A stretch of DNA of 64,000 bases, taken from IMG/VR virus record IMGVR_UViG_3300009000_000003; one strand, written 5' to 3'. Made by a program: the position numbers and the translations under genes. The notes under the pieces were generated by a model that worked only from the letters and a program-made list of their open reading frames with translations, made no database searches and was not told the origin of the DNA. Source of the DNA: a virus. Within the stretch, counting starts at the first letter, position 1. Each line of letters starts with the position of its first letter. Below are positions 6,202 to 15,142 of the stretch, in pieces.

Positions 6202-6701
6202 TTGATCTCCTTCGGGCTGAACGCCAAAGCGTTCTTTGACCACTCCCCCGAAGGGTCGTCATCAAACTTTGGCATGGATGGCCCGGAATGGACCGTCCAG
6301 ACCGTACCTCCGAAACAAATAACTGTTCCGGACTTAGTGCTGCGGAAGGGCTCATTCCGGACCACGATAGGCTGCGGAGGTCTCCCCTCCCCTCGAGAGA
6401 AGAGGGTGCGGGGCTCGGAGGATAAATCCTCTGAGCCCGTTTTGGGCCCCCAGAGGCGGGTGACCGCCTCACCTGCGAGGGGGTACTCATGCACCCCATC
6501 TGGGCAACCTTTGGCTGCCCACTGGTTGAGGAGGCTCCGAAGAGCTTCCTCGTTGAACTCGTCACAGTGCGTGACGAAGTGTCTGCTGCCCTCAGGGGGC
6601 AGGTTGATGTTGTGCTCAGCAAAGAAGCTGAGCAAGAAGGCCTCGTTAGCCGAGGCCATGTTTTTAAAAGGAGCCATTGCGGTTCCCTTTTCTCCCAACA
6701 A
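6198..6701 (-). CDS. Hypothetical protein
   Basis: ORF track; true start is probably a downstream ATG (MAPF or MASANE). Confidence 0.65.
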   Translation of the reverse strand: MLGEKGTAMAPFKNMASANEAFLLSFFAEHNINLPPEGSRHFVTHCDEFNEEALRSLLNQWAAKGCPDGVHEYPLAGEAVTRLWGPKTGSEDLSSEPRTLFSRGEGRPPQPIVVRNEPFRSTKSGTVICFGGTVWTVHSGPSMPKFDDDPSGEWSKNALAFSPKEIK

Positions 6702-6723
6702 GGGGTTTTGGGTTAATTGAAAG

Positions 6724-6797
6724 TGGGCCCTCTGGGGATTGAACCCAGGATCTCCGGTTTATGAGACCGGTGCCTTAACCAACTTGGCTAAAGGCCC
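6724..6797 (-). tRNA. tRNA-Ile2 (CAU; Met cannot be excluded)
   Basis: GGGCCUUUAGCCAAGUUGGUUAAGGC-ACCGGUCU-CAU-AAACCGG...GGUUCAAUCC..AGGGCCCA; acceptor stem resembles Ile2; no encoded CCA. Confidence 0.88.
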
Positions 6798-6808
6798 AAA
6801 TGTGAGAA

Positions 6809-6881
6809 TGGGTTGTCTGGGGCTCGAACCCAGGACCTACGGATTAAAAGTCCGCTGCTCTACCGACTGAGCTAACAACCC
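6809..6881 (-). tRNA. tRNA-Lys (UUU)
   Basis: GGGUUGUUAGCUCAGUCGGUAGAGCAGCGGACU-UUU-AAUCCG...GGUUCGAGCC..ACAACCCA. Confidence 0.95.
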
Positions 6882-6886
6882 AAAAA

Positions 6887-6960
<74 letters not shown>

Positions 6961-7096
6961 ATAAGCGCCCATTATTACGTCCGGAGCCAGACGCCTCTTT
7001 ACTATGCCACAACTTACACCACACATAGCAAAGAGAAGTTCCTCTCCTCCCGAAAGGAGTAAAAAGAGGAGAGGAGGGTGCTCCCCAACACCCGAG

Positions 7097-7178
7097 TACC
7101 GTCAGCCGGGATCGAACCGGCACACCCGAAGGCGGGAGATTTTAAGTCTCCTGTGTCTACCTATTCCACCATGACGGC
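7097..7178 (-). tRNA. tRNA-Leu (UAA)
   Basis: GCCGUCAUGGUGGAAUAGGUAGACACAGGAGACU-UAA-AAUCUCC, long variable arm, GGUUCGAUCC..UGACGGUA. Confidence 0.95.
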
Positions 7179-7216
7179 ATGGTGCTCCTGGTTAGGAGTG
7201 GGAGGGGGGCCAGAGG

Positions 7217-7411
7217 TTAATATATTTCCTCTGGCTCAAGGAATTTTTCTATCTCCCTAATGATAAAGGGGGCGATAAGAATGAATGTGATGATCCCCAA
7301 TAAAGGGGACCACATGGCTAGCTTGATCCAAGCGGCAAAAGCCGCGAGGGTCGTAAAGGCCGCTAATAGGACGAAGGTCACAAACGCGACCTCTTTGAGA
7401 TATCTTTGCAC
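7217..7411 (-). CDS. Small two-helix membrane protein
   Basis: GTG start with AAAGGAG RBS; hydrophobic. Confidence 0.65.
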   Translation of the reverse strand: MQRYLKEVAFVTFVLLAAFTTLAAFAAWIKLAMWSPLLGIITFILIAPFIIREIEKFLEPEEIY

Positions 7412-7460
7412 GAGTTACTCCTTTCGTGCAAGTAGGGGTAAGGTGGGGGAAGAGCCAGAA

Positions 7461-7580
7461 TTACTCTGACTCCTCCCAATCGAGGAGGCAGTTGTTGCAC
7501 TGCGCTCCCCAGACAATGGAGTTGAACGTGCGGCGGATGATCCAGAACCGCACGTTCAGACTGTGGCATTGTGGGCACAT
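7461..7580 (-). CDS. Small zinc-ribbon protein
   Basis: MCPQC...QCNNC; ATG at 7580 with GAGAGGA RBS. Confidence 0.6.
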   Translation of the reverse strand: MCPQCHSLNVRFWIIRRTFNSIVWGAQCNNCLLDWEESE

Positions 7581-7663
7581 AGTATTTCCTCTCATGTGCG
7601 ATAGAGGGTGTTGTAGACTGTTCAGCACATCAATTAATGATGCCCGCACTCACCATGGACGTC

Positions 7664-8391
7664 GAGGTCCTGGGGGAGGTCTGTCGAGTGCTTAGATTCC
7701 CTATTAAAACTCTTACAAGCTGCGGAGGCTTTTACTTACCCGGGATCCGCATTCTCCTAAATTACTTTAGAAGTTTCTGCCTTTTACGGCTTTGGTCATG
7801 TTGTAGACCACGGCTGCATTTCAGCTTTGCCGTTCTCCCTTGCCGCTTTTTCAGGCAATGATCTCGTCCCCCAACGCTCCTCTTGACATTTATAAAGGGA
7901 TTTCCTGTCAAGATTACTCTTTCGAGAGAGCGCAAGTTCCAACTCTTGCTATCAATCTAGGTGCTTTACGCACAACCTTTGAAAGGCGATTGACATTGCC
8001 CGTCCCCAACCTCGTGGAGGTGGTCCGTATCTGGGGACTTAGTGGTGCGGACCGGAAGGTTGCAATAGGGATAAAATCCTTATTACCCCTGGCTTCCCCT
8101 GGTACCACACCGGTGTGCAGTGCTCACTATAAAGACCAACTCCCACTGCACTTTGGGTTGGTCGGAGAGGGTGGTTGAAAAGTACTAGGCTGGGCTGATG
8201 CCCATTTAAACTGACCTAATATTTCCAACCCCCCTATAGAGAGATCGCTCTCTCCCATAAAAACATTATCTGCAATGCTTTTATGTTTTTGCTACTACAC
8301 TACAGAATAATCTGCAATGAGTAGCTTTGGTGCGGACGAGGTCTATTCCTCTTACGTCTTCCGACAGCCCGCAGCTCACCCCCAAGACCTC
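7664..8391 (-). ncRNA. Large (about 730 nt) highly structured, pseudoknotted non-coding RNA candidate
   Basis: A 13-bp terminal helix (8379-8391 with 7664-7676), three further long-range helices, two internal H-type pseudoknots and many local hairpins; no credible ORF. Confidence 0.72.
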
Positions 8392-8513
8392 TAACAGAGG
8401 TCCTGAGGAATTTAGAAGCTTTAAAACGTCTCCTTACTAGAGGTAAAACCTACTAGAAAGAAACGGTTGGACCAACCCCCGCCTGAGCGGGGAGGTCTGT
8501 CGGCGGACCCAGC

Positions 8514-8840
8514 TTAGCTCATGAGAGCCTTTAGCTGGCTCATCGGGTCGGTTTTAGCCGTCCACCCCGTGTTGGAGGTCGGGTCTTCGATCACAACGGT
8601 GATCTTCAGACCCTGGCTAGTCAGGGTCTGAACCTGAGCGTAGAGCTCGGGGCTCAACGCTGAGGTACGAATCTCAGCCTTGGACATTGTGCCCTTGGCC
8701 GATGTCGAGCTGTCAATGGACAGCTCTGAATCAAGGCCCTTAGCCGCGAGGGCAGCCGAGGCTGCGATTAAGGCAGCCTTGGAGTTAACAAATGCCCCCT
8801 CAATAAGAGGGGTGGGGGTGGGGGTGTTCTCGTTAGCCAT
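8514..8840 (-). CDS. Hypothetical protein
   Basis: ATG with strong TAAGGAG RBS; lies between the hairpin array and the large ncRNA. Confidence 0.8.
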   Translation of the reverse strand: MANENTPTPTPLIEGAFVNSKAALIAASAALAAKGLDSELSIDSSTSAKGTMSKAEIRTSALSPELYAQVQTLTSQGLKITVVIEDPTSNTGWTAKTDPMSQLKALMS

Positions 8841-8915
8841 GACGGCAACTCCTTATAGGAAGAGAAGGGAAAAGGAAGGTGTGTCTTGTGACTCACCACC
8901 ACTATCTCTCTTTCT

Positions 8916-9100
8916 GCCGTAGGCGTGCGTCAGCACACCCTCCGAAGGAGGGAGCCGTTAGGCATAGGGGCCGCTAGGCCCCCCGACAGGGCTCGCCCCT
9001 GTCGAAGACAGCCGTTAGGCGGCAACCGTTAGGTTGCTCCAGCGGAGCCGTTAGGCGGAGCGGAGTACGACGCCGCTAGGCGGAGTACGGGGAGCGGAGT
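8916..9100. repeat. Array of mini-hairpins with C-G(N)NA-G loops plus CGGAG repeats
   Basis: gcc-gta-ggc, gtgc-gtca-gcac, ccctcc-gaa-ggaggg, gcc-gtta-ggc (x3), ggggcc-gcta-ggcccc, gcaacc-gtta-ggttgc, cgcc-gcta-ggcg. Confidence 0.85.
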
Positions 9101-9147
9101 AATATCAGACGCAGCTGTCAAACATTACTATGAATATTTCTATGTTA

Positions 9148-9924
9148 TTAAGAATCATTCCACAGATCACCAAGATCAATTTGAATCTCATCGTCTAAAG
9201 TAGAAACATTGGAATCTGCACCTACAGCAGTATCAGAAACGGGTTCTACTTGAGCCTCAGAATTATCTTTAGGCTCAGAAGCCTTAGCCTCAATAAGCCT
9301 TACATAGATTGCCTTTTTATAAGCAACGCTCTTAAAGAGCCAAAAGCCCTCAGGACTAGTGACGTCTTTGAGTCGAGTAGTAGAAACTGACTCGTAGCCG
9401 TCAGGAACAGTAAAAGCTGTTCCAGCTGGATAAAACAGTGCCATCTTGAGAGGTGCCTTAAGCTGAAGCTTGCGTTTTACAGCATTGCCAAAGCTAGACA
9501 CAACTCTAGCGTTACCAAGCGAATCGTCTACTTGGCAGGATTGCTTAGCCCCAAGTAAAGGAGCAAACACCTGATTGATCCAAGTGTCTTTAACCAAAGT
9601 CCTATCTCCGTCAGCCCTTGCAGGCTCAGAAACCTTTACTGTTGAAGCTTTCTGAGTAGACGGCTTAGAATTCCCTGAGCTCCTACCAGAGCCCTTCTGA
9701 ACCATCTTACCAAAATTCACCACGACATGACTGCCACCAGAAACAGTCACATTCTGCCCAGCTTGAGGGTCTGGAACCTGTGTAGCTAACTGCTCGAGCA
9801 ACGCTGGCGAACCAGCTGCATAAGCAGCTTCAATCATACTAGAATAGCTGGAAGCCACAAGCATCAACTTAGCCTTAGCTGTATCGCTGATGGGAGCTGT
9901 GGCAATCATCATGTAAACATTCAT
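9148..9924 (-). CDS. Hypothetical protein with acidic C-terminal tail, coupled to the polymerase gene
   Basis: ATG at 9924 with GAGGAGG RBS, immediately after the polymerase stop; ends DDEIQIDLGDLWNDS. Confidence 0.75.
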   Translation of the reverse strand: MNVYMMIATAPISDTAKAKLMLVASSYSSMIEAAYAAGSPALLEQLATQVPDPQAGQNVTVSGGSHVVVNFGKMVQKGSGRSSGNSKPSTQKASTVKVSEPARADGDRTLVKDTWINQVFAPLLGAKQSCQVDDSLGNARVVSSFGNAVKRKLQLKAPLKMALFYPAGTAFTVPDGYESVSTTRLKDVTSPEGFWLFKSVAYKKAIYVRLIEAKASEPKDNSEAQVEPVSDTAVGADSNVSTLDDEIQIDLGDLWNDS

Positions 9925-9925
9925 T

Positions 9926-12900
9926 TTAGCAACCCTCCTCAGTAGTTGCAACGTCGATCAAAGCAATCAACGCTTGGGGAGAAGGCAACTTGACATTAAT
10001 CTCGTCGCCCAACCTAAAGAAACGCCTCAACGCGCTAGGCGTCTTAGCACCAAGACGACTCGAATGCTCTTGGAAGTTAGAGAGAACATAAGAGTCAAAG
10101 GCTGAAGTAAAGTGCATCAGCCCGATGACAAACTCTGCCACCACCTCGTACGGGACTGTCAGCTCATAAAGCGAAACTGTCAATCCGTCAGAAGCAGTAA
10201 GAGCTGCCTTGATGTCTTGAAGGATATGATACGGCGCCTTGACGCCATTAACCTTCGAGACAAAAGGTGTGCAGATGCTATTGCGCACATAAGACGCAAC
10301 AGGTGCCGAGTCAAACACCTCAACCTCACCACCGCTCTTAAAGACGTATTGACGAGGAGCCTCTGCGTCAAGATCGTGGTAAGTAGCAAGCTGATCGCCA
10401 GAAGACCACAGAATATTCCCAAACGAATCTGAGAACGGTGAAGGTAGAATCTTCATATAGGCGGTCTCACCGTTAAGCTTAACCATCTTACTACAAGGGT
10501 TCCGGCTTGGGTGCCGACTACCATTGCCAGACTCCGCTACGAGCTCAGCAAAGGCCTCGAGGCCGCTACCCTCGAACTTGCTCTTCCTTGAAAAGGAAGC
10601 ACCTGAGATGTCCTCGAAAAGCCTGAAGCGGCGATCCTTAAGCGCATCCTCGGTGTAGCGATACTCATTACCATCCTTGACGAAGGTAGTCTGGTCATTG
10701 AGTGCCGCCATAATAAACCGCCAGATAGGACGGTAAGCAGACACCCTGTGCCCAAACGGGCTGTTGATGTCAGCCTTAAATGAGCCACCCCAGTGATACG
10801 GTACTACCGTGCCCTGGGTAATCAGGGCGTTCCCGTCCTCCTGGTTAACGAGCTTATGGTCGAGCCTGACTAAAGCGCCAGTCTCAACCATATTGAGCTT
10901 GTGCTCCAAGTACTTCTTCACCATCTCGAGCTTTTCAGTGTCTTCCTTGAACACTGCCTTAAGCACGGCTGGATGACTGTAGAGCTTCAACTCAGTAGCC
11001 GAGTAACAGTGACCGATGCCGAAACCAGTCTCAAGCTCAAGCATTACCTGCATCCTACCAGGGAGGAAAGCACCAAGGCGCTCCTCTAAGCGATACTGAA
11101 CGCCAGAGTGAAGCACCCAGCGCTTAGTGGTGCGAGTCACATCACCAAGCGTCTTATTCTTGCGCACATAAATGTTACGCACTGGCTGCAACAAGTACAG
11201 CGAGCCATGCTCCAACATAGCGGCTGCCATGTTGACGATGATGCTCGAGCTGACAGGGTAGTCAACACGGCCTCGAAGCGTATGGAACTTCTTGACTGTG
11301 TCAATCCCGTTAGAGTCAACACCCTCGACAACCCTAGTGTGAACCATGTAACTGGCCACTCGAGCAGAAAGCTCTTCGCCAGTCAGCTGACCACCCTGCT
11401 GGGTCTTGATGAGAGCACTGAGACGCATCGCTTGCATAATGGGGGCGCCCGCCTGGATAACCTCACGGATACTAGGCAAGAGATCGCGCTCCTTCAACGC
11501 GCCCAACATGTAAGCAGTCAAATTTGGCTTATCGTCCTGCTTGACCTTAACAAACTCATCATCAGACTTGAACAGATCAGCGTTATCAAGAAGATAACTA
11601 CTCAAGAGCTCCTGATAGAATTCCTGAGTGTAACTCTCGAAGCAGTCAGCCTGCACCGCGAGCAACAGCTTGTCAATGCCGCTGCTTTCAACAAAGTAGC
11701 GGTGCTTAACATCAGACGTCTCAACAACCTCTGCTTGTACAGCGATCGCTGGATAGACGTCTGACCAGAGCCACTCTGGCCAAATGTCCTTGGTGTTGTC
11801 AGCAAGGAGCTTGTTGACGTCTACCATGACCTTACTTGCAGTCACCTGCCCGACGTTAGTGACATTAAGTAGGTCACTAAAGGAAACAGGGTGCTGCCTC
11901 TCATAGGCCGCCACAAGCGCTGCTTTGAGGCTCTCCCAAGTAGCTTGGGCTTTTGACCCATTACCTACAACAGGGAAAACCGCCAGAAGGCGACTCAAGA
12001 AGGTCTCATCGCCCGACTCGTCCGAGTTCAAGCTGTTGCGAGCAACTTCGACCTCATCCGAATTGACAGCCAGCTTCATAGCAAGCCAGTCAAGTGGTGA
12101 TCGAGCCATAAGATACTGCTCATAGCCGAAGACTCCCCACGCGTGGAAAAACAGCTCAGAGAGCATCTCGAGAGATTCTCTCTTAGAACCATCCCCGTAC
12201 TGAGGCTTAAAGGCTCGAAGAGCTGCCTTGTAGACAACACTTTGATTCTCAGTGTCATCAAACATCTCAAGGGCCTGTTTAAGCTTATCAAGCATGTCAT
12301 TGGCGTCATTATCGCCACGAGCATTAAAATACTCGCTTTGAGCCATGCTAGCGTACTCACCGGCCTTGACTTGCTTGTAATAGCTAAACCACTTCTGAAG
12401 GAAGTGATAAGCACTGCTTGCAGCATTCGCTTTCTTAGGGTCAGCGAAAGCAATCGCATAGTGCTCATGGATTGCCCTTAGAGGCTGCCCCGTGATTCCA
12501 AGGTCACACTTGACAGCCTGATTTTCCTCGACAGTCCACTCAGACATGAGCTTCGCGGCTGGAGGTGCATCGCGAAGAGGCACCTCTAGGGAAGTCTCTT
12601 TGATCCAAGCGTAGGCTCGCTCAGGAAAGACCCATGAGTTCTCAATGGCTTTAATCTCTCGATCATCACCAAGAATCTCCTTGATCTTCTCCCACATCGG
12701 TTTCAGGTCATCCGCGTTAGCAGTAGCCATCGCCTCCGAGATCGCCTCCATCTTGCTAGCCCAGTCATCAGCTGATGGGAACTGGTACCCAGCATTGATG
12801 AAGTTAATGGCCCAACAGACGAAGAGCTTGAGCACTCCGACGTTGTACTGCTCGTCAACAGAGAGACGAGTGTGCACATTCGCTCCAGGATTCTCGGGAG

Positions 12901-15142
12901 CAATCTCCATACGTGGGAAGCTCTCGTCCATGGTAGCGACGACATAATCTTTGTCGCTGACAATAGCTCTTTCGAAGATAGCATCGGAGAGCTGAAGCCA
13001 GCAGAGCAGTGACGCTACCGCTGCTGGTTTTTTGGTGCGGTCGATGCTATTCTGCACCAAGAAGCACAAGAAGGCATAAAACTTTAACGCCCACTCCCTT
13101 ACCCGAGGATCTGGTCCCCAAGCTCCATTTGTGTCCCGCCATACGATGTGGGCAAGCACAGCAGAGCACAGGTTGACTAGAGTCCCTGTAGGCCCTTGGC
13201 CTTGATTTGGGGCACAAATAAAATTGGCCACCTCGGCCTTTGTTACCCCATCGGGGATCTCAAAACAAGGAGCATCAAGAACCTTGAGGTTTCCGTCCTT
13301 GCGTGAGTCCCTGTGATTAACCTCAATCTTTGGGACAGGGAGGTTCCGAGTAGCCTCCTCGTGAATTTTAACAGCGCGAACACGCCAAGCCTCTTTCTCT
13401 ACGAGCAAGCGGTCGCCGTCAGAGTCTCGTTGGAGGCGGTCTTGGGCCTGCTTGCTCATCCAAATGAGATTTGGACTTGCCTCGAGGCTAATCCAAATTG
13501 CTCTGAGGCGCAGATAAACCGCTTCATTAAGGGCAAAGGCCGTGCTCTCGCTGCCTATCTCCTTGTAGATGAAGGAGCAAAGGTCCCCGTAGAACTGCTG
13601 TCCCTGACGAGACAGCTCCCCTGAATCATGCTCAAGGCCAAAATAGACCTTCTTTGCAAAATCAAAGACCTTGGTCAAAGACTTGTGAGTTATCACAGCC
13701 TGCGTGATGAGGCAAGCGTGGTAGAGCTGAGGCTGGCCTGTAACAGCAACAGCATCAAACTCAACGCCCTCAATCGATACTTTCTCGGTCTTCTTTGGCA
13801 TCTTTTTAAGGATACAGTAGTCCGAAGGCATTGAAATCTGATCGCAGTACATGGTCTTAACCTTGTGGCCCTGGCCGTACACTGTGTGCGCGACCTTGCC
13901 TGGGCTAATAGCTCCAAGGCTGGCAGCCGAAGCCTTGAGAGCATCGACATTCTCTGCGCCCTCAAAGAGCTTCTCGACAATTGGATTGTCAAGCTCATAG
14001 AGACGCTCAAGCGAGCTGCGGATTGCTCCACGGAACTCATTCTCTTGGAGCAGCAAAGCACCAGCAGAACGAATAATAGCGTCCTGCCATGCTACCGACG
14101 AGCTTCCTTGAGGATTGTCCTCGGCAATCACGCCACCTGTGAAGAGGCGATGATCGTGACCCACCGTTGGAGCGTAGCAATCAAACCACCACTCTTGCAG
14201 GTCAATGATCTCGAGCCCTTGAAGGGCCTCACCCTTAGCCTCCACAGCATCTTTCAACGACCCCTTAACGTTGTCGTAGTGGATGAAGAAGGCGTCGACA
14301 GTCTCGTCAGGAGACTGACCCTTGAGATCGCGGTACTTGATCTCGTCAGGGGTGAGTTTGAGCCACCGATCCCCATACCTGACCGCCTGGGTGCAGGTGG
14401 CGTGGGCCTTACCCTTAGCCTGGAAGCCAGGAGCGACATTGCCCTCAGCATCCTCAACCAACGGCGTGTGCACGCGAATCTGGAAGATCGGGTGCCCAGC
14501 GCCTAGGTTTAAGCCCATAGAGTACTCGTTTCCTCCATCAGCTCCAACCTGACCTTGGTTCTCGATGTTGGTCAGGAAGTACCTGACGCGGTTTCCATCA
14601 AGATCTCGGTTGAGGCCCGAGGTAAACGGCGTCGTTGCCATACCACGACTACGAGCCCTGAGCTCTTTGTTCGTGGCAAATACGCTCTTGAGCCACTTAG
14701 CGTATGGCATCAAGTTGCCATCCTCATCCCGCTCCTTAACGAAGAAGCCAGGAGTAACAGGGCTAAAGCCAAGTTGAGCTGTAACTCGATTGAGCACAGC
14801 TACGTCAACCTGACGCCCCTTCTCGTCCTTGAGGTTTTGGACAAACAAGACGTCATCATACGCCACCTCAAGTTTATCCTGCCCAAGCGACTCGCGCCAC
14901 TCATTGAGCTGGTCAAGGCTCTGCTTGAAAGCAGAAGCCCACTGGTGCTCTGCCACAAAGGCCTGCTTGAGCACCTGCCCATGAGGCTCATCGCCCTCAG
15001 CCCACCCCAAGAAGTCCTTATCAGACGTGGGGAAAAGCTTAAGGGTTAAATAGTTCTCAGCCATAGCTGAGCTCTTGACTTGCTTTTTCAGCGAGTCCAT
15101 GAGCTTCCTGCCAAGCTGAATCTTCTTCTTAATAGAACTCAT
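9926..15142 (-). CDS. Putative single-subunit two-barrel RNA polymerase (YonO / eukaryotic RdRP-like)
   Basis: Ordered motifs GADGGNEYS (DGxG-like), IFQIR, AKG, VAVTGQPQL (RNP-equivalent position) and RDSDGD (DxDGD at 13426-13412). Confidence 0.72.
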   Translation of the reverse strand: MSSIKKKIQLGRKLMDSLKKQVKSSAMAENYLTLKLFPTSDKDFLGWAEGDEPHGQVLKQAFVAEHQWASAFKQSLDQLNEWRESLGQDKLEVAYDDVLFVQNLKDEKGRQVDVAVLNRVTAQLGFSPVTPGFFVKERDEDGNLMPYAKWLKSVFATNKELRARSRGMATTPFTSGLNRDLDGNRVRYFLTNIENQGQVGADGGNEYSMGLNLGAGHPIFQIRVHTPLVEDAEGNVAPGFQAKGKAHATCTQAVRYGDRWLKLTPDEIKYRDLKGQSPDETVDAFFIHYDNVKGSLKDAVEAKGEALQGLEIIDLQEWWFDCYAPTVGHDHRLFTGGVIAEDNPQGSSSVAWQDAIIRSAGALLLQENEFRGAIRSSLERLYELDNPIVEKLFEGAENVDALKASAASLGAISPGKVAHTVYGQGHKVKTMYCDQISMPSDYCILKKMPKKTEKVSIEGVEFDAVAVTGQPQLYHACLITQAVITHKSLTKVFDFAKKVYFGLEHDSGELSRQGQQFYGDLCSFIYKEIGSESTAFALNEAVYLRLRAIWISLEASPNLIWMSKQAQDRLQRDSDGDRLLVEKEAWRVRAVKIHEEATRNLPVPKIEVNHRDSRKDGNLKVLDAPCFEIPDGVTKAEVANFICAPNQGQGPTGTLVNLCSAVLAHIVWRDTNGAWGPDPRVREWALKFYAFLCFLVQNSIDRTKKPAAVASLLCWLQLSDAIFERAIVSDKDYVVATMDESFPRMEIAPENPGANVHTRLSVDEQYNVGVLKLFVCWAINFINAGYQFPSADDWASKMEAISEAMATANADDLKPMWEKIKEILGDDREIKAIENSWVFPERAYAWIKETSLEVPLRDAPPAAKLMSEWTVEENQAVKCDLGITGQPLRAIHEHYAIAFADPKKANAASSAYHFLQKWFSYYKQVKAGEYASMAQSEYFNARGDNDANDMLDKLKQALEMFDDTENQSVVYKAALRAFKPQYGDGSKRESLEMLSELFFHAWGVFGYEQYLMARSPLDWLAMKLAVNSDEVEVARNSLNSDESGDETFLSRLLAVFPVVGNGSKAQATWESLKAALVAAYERQHPVSFSDLLNVTNVGQVTASKVMVDVNKLLADNTKDIWPEWLWSDVYPAIAVQAEVVETSDVKHRYFVESSGIDKLLLAVQADCFESYTQEFYQELLSSYLLDNADLFKSDDEFVKVKQDDKPNLTAYMLGALKERDLLPSIREVIQAGAPIMQAMRLSALIKTQQGGQLTGEELSARVASYMVHTRVVEGVDSNGIDTVKKFHTLRGRVDYPVSSSIIVNMAAAMLEHGSLYLLQPVRNIYVRKNKTLGDVTRTTKRWVLHSGVQYRLEERLGAFLPGRMQVMLELETGFGIGHCYSATELKLYSHPAVLKAVFKEDTEKLEMVKKYLEHKLNMVETGALVRLDHKLVNQEDGNALITQGTVVPYHWGGSFKADINSPFGHRVSAYRPIWRFIMAALNDQTTFVKDGNEYRYTEDALKDRRFRLFEDISGASFSRKSKFEGSGLEAFAELVAESGNGSRHPSRNPCSKMVKLNGETAYMKILPSPFSDSFGNILWSSGDQLATYHDLDAEAPRQYVFKSGGEVEVFDSAPVASYVRNSICTPFVSKVNGVKAPYHILQDIKAALTASDGLTVSLYELTVPYEVVAEFVIGLMHFTSAFDSYVLSNFQEHSSRLGAKTPSALRRFFRLGDEINVKLPSPQALIALIDVATTEEGC

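What the first reader, a model, noticed from the sequence alone, without database searches (positions are those of the whole stretch)
7664..8391. Giant ornate non-coding RNA candidate (about 730 nt) upstream of the tRNA cluster
Seen: a terminal 13-bp helix GAGGUCUUGGGGG/CCCCCAGGACCUC whose G-U pair works only on the minus strand. Long-range helices 8369-8376 with 7718-7725 and 8362-8367 with 7681-7686 cross each other (core pseudoknot), and 8331-8336 pairs with 7746-7751. There are two H-type pseudoknots (8002-8008/8032-8038 with 8022-8027/8048-8053; 8115-8122/8144-8151 with 8134-8140/8157-8163) and over ten local hairpins. Established: GOLLD and ROOL RNAs are similarly large and occur near phage tRNAs. 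The core topology loosely recalls RNase P, but its signature sequences are absent. It may be a new class.
Basis: partly seen in the sequence, partly recalled or inferred. Interest (0 to 1): 0.85.

Follow-up and report, generated by a model that had tools for sequence, protein, structure and literature searches.

The report
Ribozyme-punctuated phage RNA module cassette
The supposed single 730-base RNA is a string of separately conserved folded RNA modules in an aquatic phage, most likely cut apart by one or two self-cleaving HDV-like ribozymes; the pieces match no catalogued RNA family and what they do is untested.

Summary
All eight helices exist and the region folds strongly (z -10.5), but it is not one RNase-P-like RNA. 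It lies in a non-coding cassette that related large aquatic phages carry at the same place with shuffled contents.

Homologs split it (minus strand) into four parts:
- W1 (8409-8039), an undescribed structured RNA.
- HDV-like ribozyme 1 (8038-7939), with 6 compensatory pairs in 4 sequences.
- W2 (7938-7692), ending in an undescribed pseudoknot module K.
- An HDV-like fold with a non-standard L3 (7691-7615), which sits 6-7 nt behind tRNA-Met in relatives.

Every long-range helix uses strands that pair locally, with covariation, in relatives. The three nested ones drop from probability 0.88-1.0 to under 0.1 once flanks are included. Their complementarity still exceeds shuffles (0/500), so an alternative fold is not excluded.

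No Rfam hit to GOLLD, ROOL, RNase P, tmRNA or introns. Most likely the ribozymes cut a long transcript into stable RNAs of 371+ and 347 nt. Cleavage and function are untested. The scan noted ribozyme-punctuated phage RNA arrays before on other DNA; I found no look-alike of these modules there.

The parts
8425..8510 (-). Conserved structured leader behind the 108-aa gene; ends in an SD-like AAGGAGACG with no ORF behind it; that motif opens the cassette in every relative
8379..8409 (-).
   Evidence: compensatory changes in 7 sequences; pair probability 0.92
8288..8378 (-). Module A three-way junction (stem 8373-8367/8337-8331 holding a GNRA hairpin and a hairpin with an invariant UAGA loop end), then a long hairpin; shared by W-type and B-type RNAs
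   Evidence: 12 of 41 pairs of module A change on both sides
8039..8287 (-). Rest of W1: hairpins, H-type pseudoknot 8163-8115, closing helix 8111-8105/8050-8044 just before the predicted cut
   Evidence: window versus L042: 5 two-sided changes and no broken pair among the 90 predicted over 8332-8036; pseudoknot stem kept through 2-3 changes
7939..8038 (-). HDV-like ribozyme 1: G1=8038, P1 8038-32/8008-02, P3 8021-19/8011-09, 7-nt L3, P1.1, long P4, C75=7948, P2 8027-23/7943-39 weakened by one G.G mismatch
   Evidence: Rfam RF02682 21.6 bits here, 37.4 bits in homolog L108, cut-off 44; 92.6% of cells paired, 6 two-sided pairs
7752..7938 (-). 5' part of W2: junction and hairpins, one with a T-loop-like loop also seen in G001 and L108; otherwise no homolog found
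   Evidence: one 231-nt RNA-run contig covers 7795-8025 (weak)
7692..7751 (-). Module K: stem 7751-46/7726-21, inner stem with A-rich loop, tetraloop hairpin 7720-7709, pseudoknot 7745-42/7701-7698; HDV-like connectivity but no catalytic C
   Evidence: stems and pseudoknot kept with different sequence in G001 and L108
7615..7691 (-). HDV-like fold 2: G1=7691, P1 7691-85/7652-46, hairpin 7670-7657 inserted in L3, GG, P4 7643-7627, C75-equivalent 7625, short P2
   Evidence: 2 two-sided changes each in P1, L3 hairpin and P4 against L037/L040, which are 2 lineages only
6723..7178 (-). tRNA-Leu(UAA), -Arg(UCU), -Lys(UUU), -Met/Ile2(CAU) downstream on the same strand
8514..8840 (-). 108-aa gene of unknown function that always precedes the cassette; used as the anchor to fetch homologs

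Best explanation
A long minus-strand transcript of the phage's GC-rich island runs through a cassette of exchangeable RNA modules (transcription inferred). HDV-like ribozyme 1 folds as it is made and cuts between 8039 and 8038 (fold shown by covariation; cleavage inferred from the conserved active site, about 75%, probably slowed by the weak P2). This gives W1 (at least 371 nt) a defined 3' end with a 2',3'-cyclic phosphate just behind a strong closing helix. Fold 2 probably cuts between 7692 and 7691 (about 50%). That would release a 347-nt RNA (ribozyme 1 plus W2) whose 3' end is tied into pseudoknot K, and leave a 5'-OH end on the RNA for the downstream small genes and tRNAs. So the ribozymes do for these RNAs what theta ribozymes do for tRNA trailers: host-independent end formation. 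The released RNAs most likely persist as stable, protein-binding decoy or scaffold RNAs during infection, as is suspected for ROOL and GOLLD (inference only, about 40%).
For: Mosaic order in relatives: L042 shares 8399-7937 and then goes into tRNA-Met; L040 has 8047-7939 at 95% identity in another context; L035, L037 and L040 share module A but continue into a different body of about 430 nt that also ends at an HDV-like ribozyme (CPEB3 model 33.7 bits for the paralogous copy in L040, cut-off 35). HDV covariation includes P1.1 and P3. HDV-like folds occur in every relative's cassette examined beyond the 333-nt fragment L036. Local covariation in modules A and K and in fold 2. Fold 2 lies 6-7 nt behind tRNA-Met in L037 and L040. 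Insertion boundaries in G001 versus L108 fall at module ends. C75, G25 and P1.1 are the known essentials (PMC13635239).
Against: Neither ribozyme reaches an Rfam cut-off in the window. P2 is weakened in both window copies. Position 78 of ribozyme 1 is G. Fold 2 lacks the 7-8-nt L3 with G25. My HDV descriptor has many false positives (14 hits with C against 4, 5 and 9 with A, G, T), so support rests on covariation in only 2-7 related sequences. No data on RNA ends. The excess long-range complementarity is not explained by this model.
Confidence: 0.68

Rival explanations
1. Bistable precursor: in this lineage the 5' module and the 3' modules have evolved matching helices, so a closed form competes with the local folds, sequesters fold 2 and module K, and times the cleavage or holds the cut pieces together in trans.
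For: Complementarity far beyond shuffles. The nested constrained folds lie within about 3 kcal/mol (-314.5 versus -311.3). The terminal helix is 13/13 here but about 8/13 if the relatives' modules are paired. Both ribozymes have a weakened P2 here.
Against: No long-range partner in any relative. Local helices win with flanks and form first during transcription. Copying between modules happens in this lineage: the 14-nt identity 8502-8489 = 7686-7673 is absent from the 99% strain L105, so mirrored helices can be by-products.
Confidence: 0.15
2. One 730-nt ornate RNA of a new class in which former ribozymes serve only as structural domains.
For: All helices present; best fold at those boundaries; weak P2 in both ribozyme folds; GOLLD and ROOL precedent near phage tRNAs (PMC12286853).
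Against: The boundaries cut two covarying modules in half; no relative has this unit; C75, G25 and P1.1 are retained in ribozyme 1.
Confidence: 0.07
3. The modules are cis-acting processing and stability signals, or selfish hitch-hikers shuffled by recombination; the released RNAs have no role of their own and the cassette only matures and stabilises the tRNA and early-gene transcript.
For: Fast turnover of contents between close relatives; the whole island is over-folded, ORFs included; tRNAs lie downstream.
Against: 1-2 kb of covarying, pseudoknotted RNA is kept at one locus across phages whose polymerase-like proteins are only 30-45% identical, far more than end processing needs.
Confidence: 0.1

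Closest known systems
HDV-like ribozymes (Rfam RF02682, RF00622) and theta ribozymes of gut phages (Kienbeck et al. 2024, PMC10879173)
   Same: Nested double pseudoknot with G1, P1.1, G25 and C75; phage tRNA region; predicted to set the 3' end of the upstream RNA.
   Different: Ribozyme 1 has a long P4 and follows a structured non-tRNA; aquatic phage. Fold 2 carries a hairpin inside L3 and, in relatives, cuts 6-7 nt from the tRNA end, outside the +/-5 nt definition. The paper leaves non-tRNA-associated copies unexplained.
GOLLD and ROOL RNAs (Kretsch et al. 2025, PMC12286853)
   Same: Hundreds of nucleotides of structured phage RNA beside tRNA islands, pseudoknots and loop-loop pairings, unknown function.
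   Different: No covariance-model match in the window or in the homologous cassettes scanned; no conserved core across homologs; contents are shuffled modules separated by ribozymes.
Bacterial RNase P RNA
   Different: CR-I and CR-V motifs are absent from the region (motifs recalled from knowledge), no Rfam hit, and the drawn core is contradicted by covariation.
UG27 reverse transcriptase ncRNA arrays (bioRxiv 10.64898/2026.09.22.753630)
   Same: Phage-encoded variable array of structured RNAs with gain and loss of units.
   Different: The units here are unlike each other, and no reverse transcriptase (PF00078) was found in two related genomes.

Membership tests
HDV-like ribozyme (8038-7939) | P1 of 7 bp starting at G1; P3 of 3 bp; 7-8-nt L3 with U20 and G25; P1.1 | tested here: met
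   compensatory changes in P1, P3 and P1.1
HDV-like ribozyme (8038-7939) | Catalytic C75 opening J4/2, followed by purines | tested here: met
   C at 7948 invariant in the four aligned copies and in L108; position 78 is G here, A or G in homologs
HDV-like ribozyme (8038-7939) | Stable P2 closing the pseudoknot | tested here: inconclusive
   P2 covaries across homologs, but the window copy has 4 of 5 pairs, one of them G-U
HDV-like ribozyme (8038-7939) | Rfam gathering score (RF02682, 44 bits) | tested here: not met
   21.6 bits here, 29.4 in G001, 37.4 in L108
HDV-like ribozyme (both folds) | Mg2+-dependent self-cleavage lost in C75U | not testable with these tools
   needs an in vitro assay
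HDV-like ribozyme (7691-7615) | P1, GG, P4, C75 and P2 in HDV order | tested here: met
   P2 is 5 bp in L037/L040 and 4 bp with a longer J4/2 here (read by eye; the P2 columns given were mis-set)
HDV-like ribozyme (7691-7615) | 7-8-nt L3 with G25 | tested here: not met
   L3 carries a covarying 14-nt hairpin; no Rfam ribozyme hit at E up to 10
Theta ribozyme | Minimal P4, and for the tRNA-associated class a cut within 5 nt of a tRNA 3' end | tested here: not met
   the P4 region of ribozyme 1 is 51 nt; the nearest tRNA is downstream; the fold-2 homolog cuts 6-7 nt from tRNA-Met
GOLLD / ROOL | Covariance-model match | tested here: not met
GOLLD / ROOL | Phage-encoded, next to a tRNA island | tested here: met
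GOLLD / ROOL | Homo-multimeric nanocage | not testable with these tools
   needs mass photometry or cryo-EM
RNase P RNA | CR-I and CR-V motifs; conserved P4 pseudoknot | tested here: not met
tmRNA / group I / group II intron | ARAGORN or Rfam match | tested here: not met

The most novel reading that the evidence does not exclude
This phage clade keeps a dedicated locus for an exchangeable repertoire of large functional RNAs (W1, W2/K and the roughly 530-nt B-type RNA of relatives). Each would be a new ncRNA class released by self-cleavage, and fold 2 a new HDV-ribozyme variant with a hairpin inside L3. In this strain the 5' and 3' modules may also re-pair as a switch or a two-piece complex.
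Probability: 0.3. Interest if true: 0.75.

Novelty: new variant of a known kind. Interest (0 to 1): 0.48.

Why it matters
It offers a concrete job for orphan phage HDV-like ribozymes, which the theta-ribozyme paper left open: setting the ends of large non-tRNA RNAs. It supplies three uncatalogued covarying motifs (module A/W1, module K, and an HDV-like fold with an L3 insert) with predicted cut sites that a simple transcription assay can test. It is also a caution: strong terminal helices in such cassettes can be an artefact of where the boundaries are drawn.

Tried and rejected
- Rfam at gathering and E-value thresholds: only tRNAs and sub-threshold HDV models.
- blastn against GenBank phages: only short chance hits outside the element.
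- IMG/VR scans for module A (0 hits), the K loop 15-mer (43 hits, all but G001 look like chance), the fold-2 core (15 hits, none with the helices), and a gapped K pattern in viral and genome contigs (no new member).
- Covariance model of module A: no convincing second copy in the window, the searched part of G001, or L108.
- No sigma-70 promoter match in 6400-9300, so the 5' end of W1 is unknown.
- RtcB, reverse transcriptase and TROVE/Ro not found in G001 (79% complete) or G005: no support for phage-encoded circularisation, cDNA templating or Y-RNA models.
- Expression: one RNA run holds a single 231-nt perfect contig at 7795-8025. The run was chosen for holding this stretch, and contigs show no strand or ends, so it is not counted as evidence.
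- The HDV descriptor scan alone is unreliable.
- The structure, the P2 columns, one pair probability and the L037 anchor were mis-set. They were redone or not used.
- No whole genome is held for the window. The host was not determined.

Full report
Setting. The window is part of a large tailed phage: terminase, portal, major head and tail-sheath matches lie at 26-49 kb, and the finding's stretch is held by estuary, freshwater and soil-labelled runs. The finding lies in a 50% GC island on the minus strand, between a 108-aa gene (8840-8514) and two small ORFs followed by four tRNAs. No convincing ORF lies inside it.

The observation. All eight helices are in the sequence, and the wobble argues for the minus strand. 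The fold is far more stable than shuffles (z -10.5), but so is the adjacent coding gene (z -7.8), so stability alone does not define an RNA. The complementarity between 8391-8330 and 7751-7664 is real: -62.6 kcal/mol against -30 +/- 7 for shuffles, none of 500 as good. Rfam gives no family at cut-off. The best sub-threshold hit is an HDV ribozyme model at 8038-7966.

Homologs. Relatives were fetched through the 108-aa protein (60-97% identity), the terminase (G001) and the large polymerase-like protein (L108, L109). All have a non-coding cassette at the same place, but its contents differ. L042 matches 8399-7937 and then runs into tRNA-Met. L035, L037 and L040 share only 8399-8288 and continue into another body. 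L040 carries 8047-7939 at 95% identity elsewhere. L037 and L040 carry 7676-7640 behind tRNA-Met. No relative other than near-identical strains has the 730-nt unit.

Module A and W1. In seven sequences 12 of 41 local pairs change on both sides, including two in the stem 8373-8367/8337-8331 and one in the GNRA stem. The rest of W1 agrees between the window and L042, with five two-sided changes and no broken predicted pair. That pairing with 8027-8022 is absent in L040 and L042.

Ribozyme 1. 8038-7939 has the complete HDV layout. Across window, L040, L042 and G001, 92.6% of cells pair and six pairs change on both sides, in P1, P2, P3 and P1.1; slid controls give 25-54%. G25 and C75 are invariant, and these are the residues shown to be needed (PMC13635239). 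The L108 homolog scores 37.4 bits (E 0.002) against a cut-off of 44. The window's P2 has a G.G mismatch, so cleavage may be slow. The B-type RNAs of L035, L037 and L040 end at a different HDV-like ribozyme, and further copies occur in G001, L108 and L109. Ending a structured RNA at an HDV-like ribozyme therefore recurs across the clade.

Module K and fold 2. 7751-7692 recurs in G001 and L108 with a near-identical A-rich loop and linker but different stems. The outer stem, the tetraloop hairpin and a pseudoknot to the last bases are all kept. 7691-7615 has HDV connectivity. P1, a hairpin inside L3 and P4 each show two compensatory changes against L037/L040, where the fold starts 6-7 nt after tRNA-Met. 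Its L3 is not canonical and G25 is missing, so activity is uncertain.

Why the giant fold appeared. With flanks they fall to 0.02-0.09, while the 8409 hairpin, HDV P1 and the K stem take over (0.82-0.92); the junction stem reaches 0.88 in the predicted W1 product. Relatives show no special long-range partner for module A (L035, L040, L042). The excess complementarity may come from copying between modules: a 14-nt identity between 8502-8489 and 7686-7673 is missing in a 99% identical strain. A real alternative fold cannot be excluded, since the constrained energies differ by only about 3 kcal/mol.

Mechanism. Shown: the modules, their local folds, and their shuffling. Inferred: transcription on the minus strand; cleavage at 8039/8038 (about 75%) and 7692/7691 (about 50%); release of W1 (371 nt or more) and a 347-nt RNA whose 3' end is knotted by K. 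Speculative: that these RNAs act as stable decoys or scaffolds (about 40%). The 347-nt piece would carry a 5'-OH and a cyclic phosphate and could be circularised by a host ligase, but no RtcB was found in two related genomes.

Comparison and novelty. It works like theta ribozymes (PMC10879173) but on non-tRNA RNAs, and it fails that definition on P4 length and tRNA distance. It resembles GOLLD and ROOL (PMC12286853) in setting only. It is not RNase P. Five literature searches found no description of these modules. Other agents in this scan reported ribozyme-punctuated RNA modules in other phages; those notes are unchecked and are not independent support, and sequence look-ups found no match to these modules. 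Verdict: real and structured, not one giant RNA; a new variant of a known kind with uncatalogued modules. Interest 0.48.

Noticed in passing
L035 880-1409; L037 8755-9289; L040 4860-5392: B-type RNA of about 530 nt: module A plus a chain of covarying hairpins with an invariant 6-bp loop-loop pairing, ended by a CPEB3-like HDV ribozyme; no Rfam match. A better candidate for an ornate RNA than the window's unit.
   Followed up: partly
L032 7690-9635; L108 10310-12337; L109 14640-15786: 1-2 kb structured non-coding cassettes at the same locus in distant relatives, with HDV-like folds, a hammerhead-like core with U in place of A9 (L032 7867, L035 768) and recurring GUAAAA-loop hairpins.
   Followed up: partly
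L032 9340-9465; L035 1585-1720: tRNA-like modules with a clear T arm and anticodon-like arm but an aberrant 5' half, missed by ARAGORN and Rfam; the one in G001 is an exact insertion relative to L108.
   Followed up: no
window 9926-15142: 1738-aa protein with an invariant DxDGD motif across 15 aligned homologs; no Pfam or PDB sequence match.
   Followed up: partly
window 8425-8436: SD-like AAGGAGACG with no ORF behind it opens the cassette in all relatives; possibly a ribosome-binding decoy or processing signal.
   Followed up: no
window 8489-8502 and 7673-7686: 14-nt identity present here but not in the 99% strain L105, suggesting recent copying between modules.
   Followed up: partly
window 7200-7596 and 8514-8840: Small ORFs of the island fold far better than shuffles (z -8.0 and -7.8), so structure is selected or tolerated in coding sequence too.
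   Followed up: no
window 8845-8945: Structured leader of the 108-aa gene, nearly invariant in all close relatives; scores in my loose HDV descriptor on the plus strand, probably by chance.
   Followed up: no
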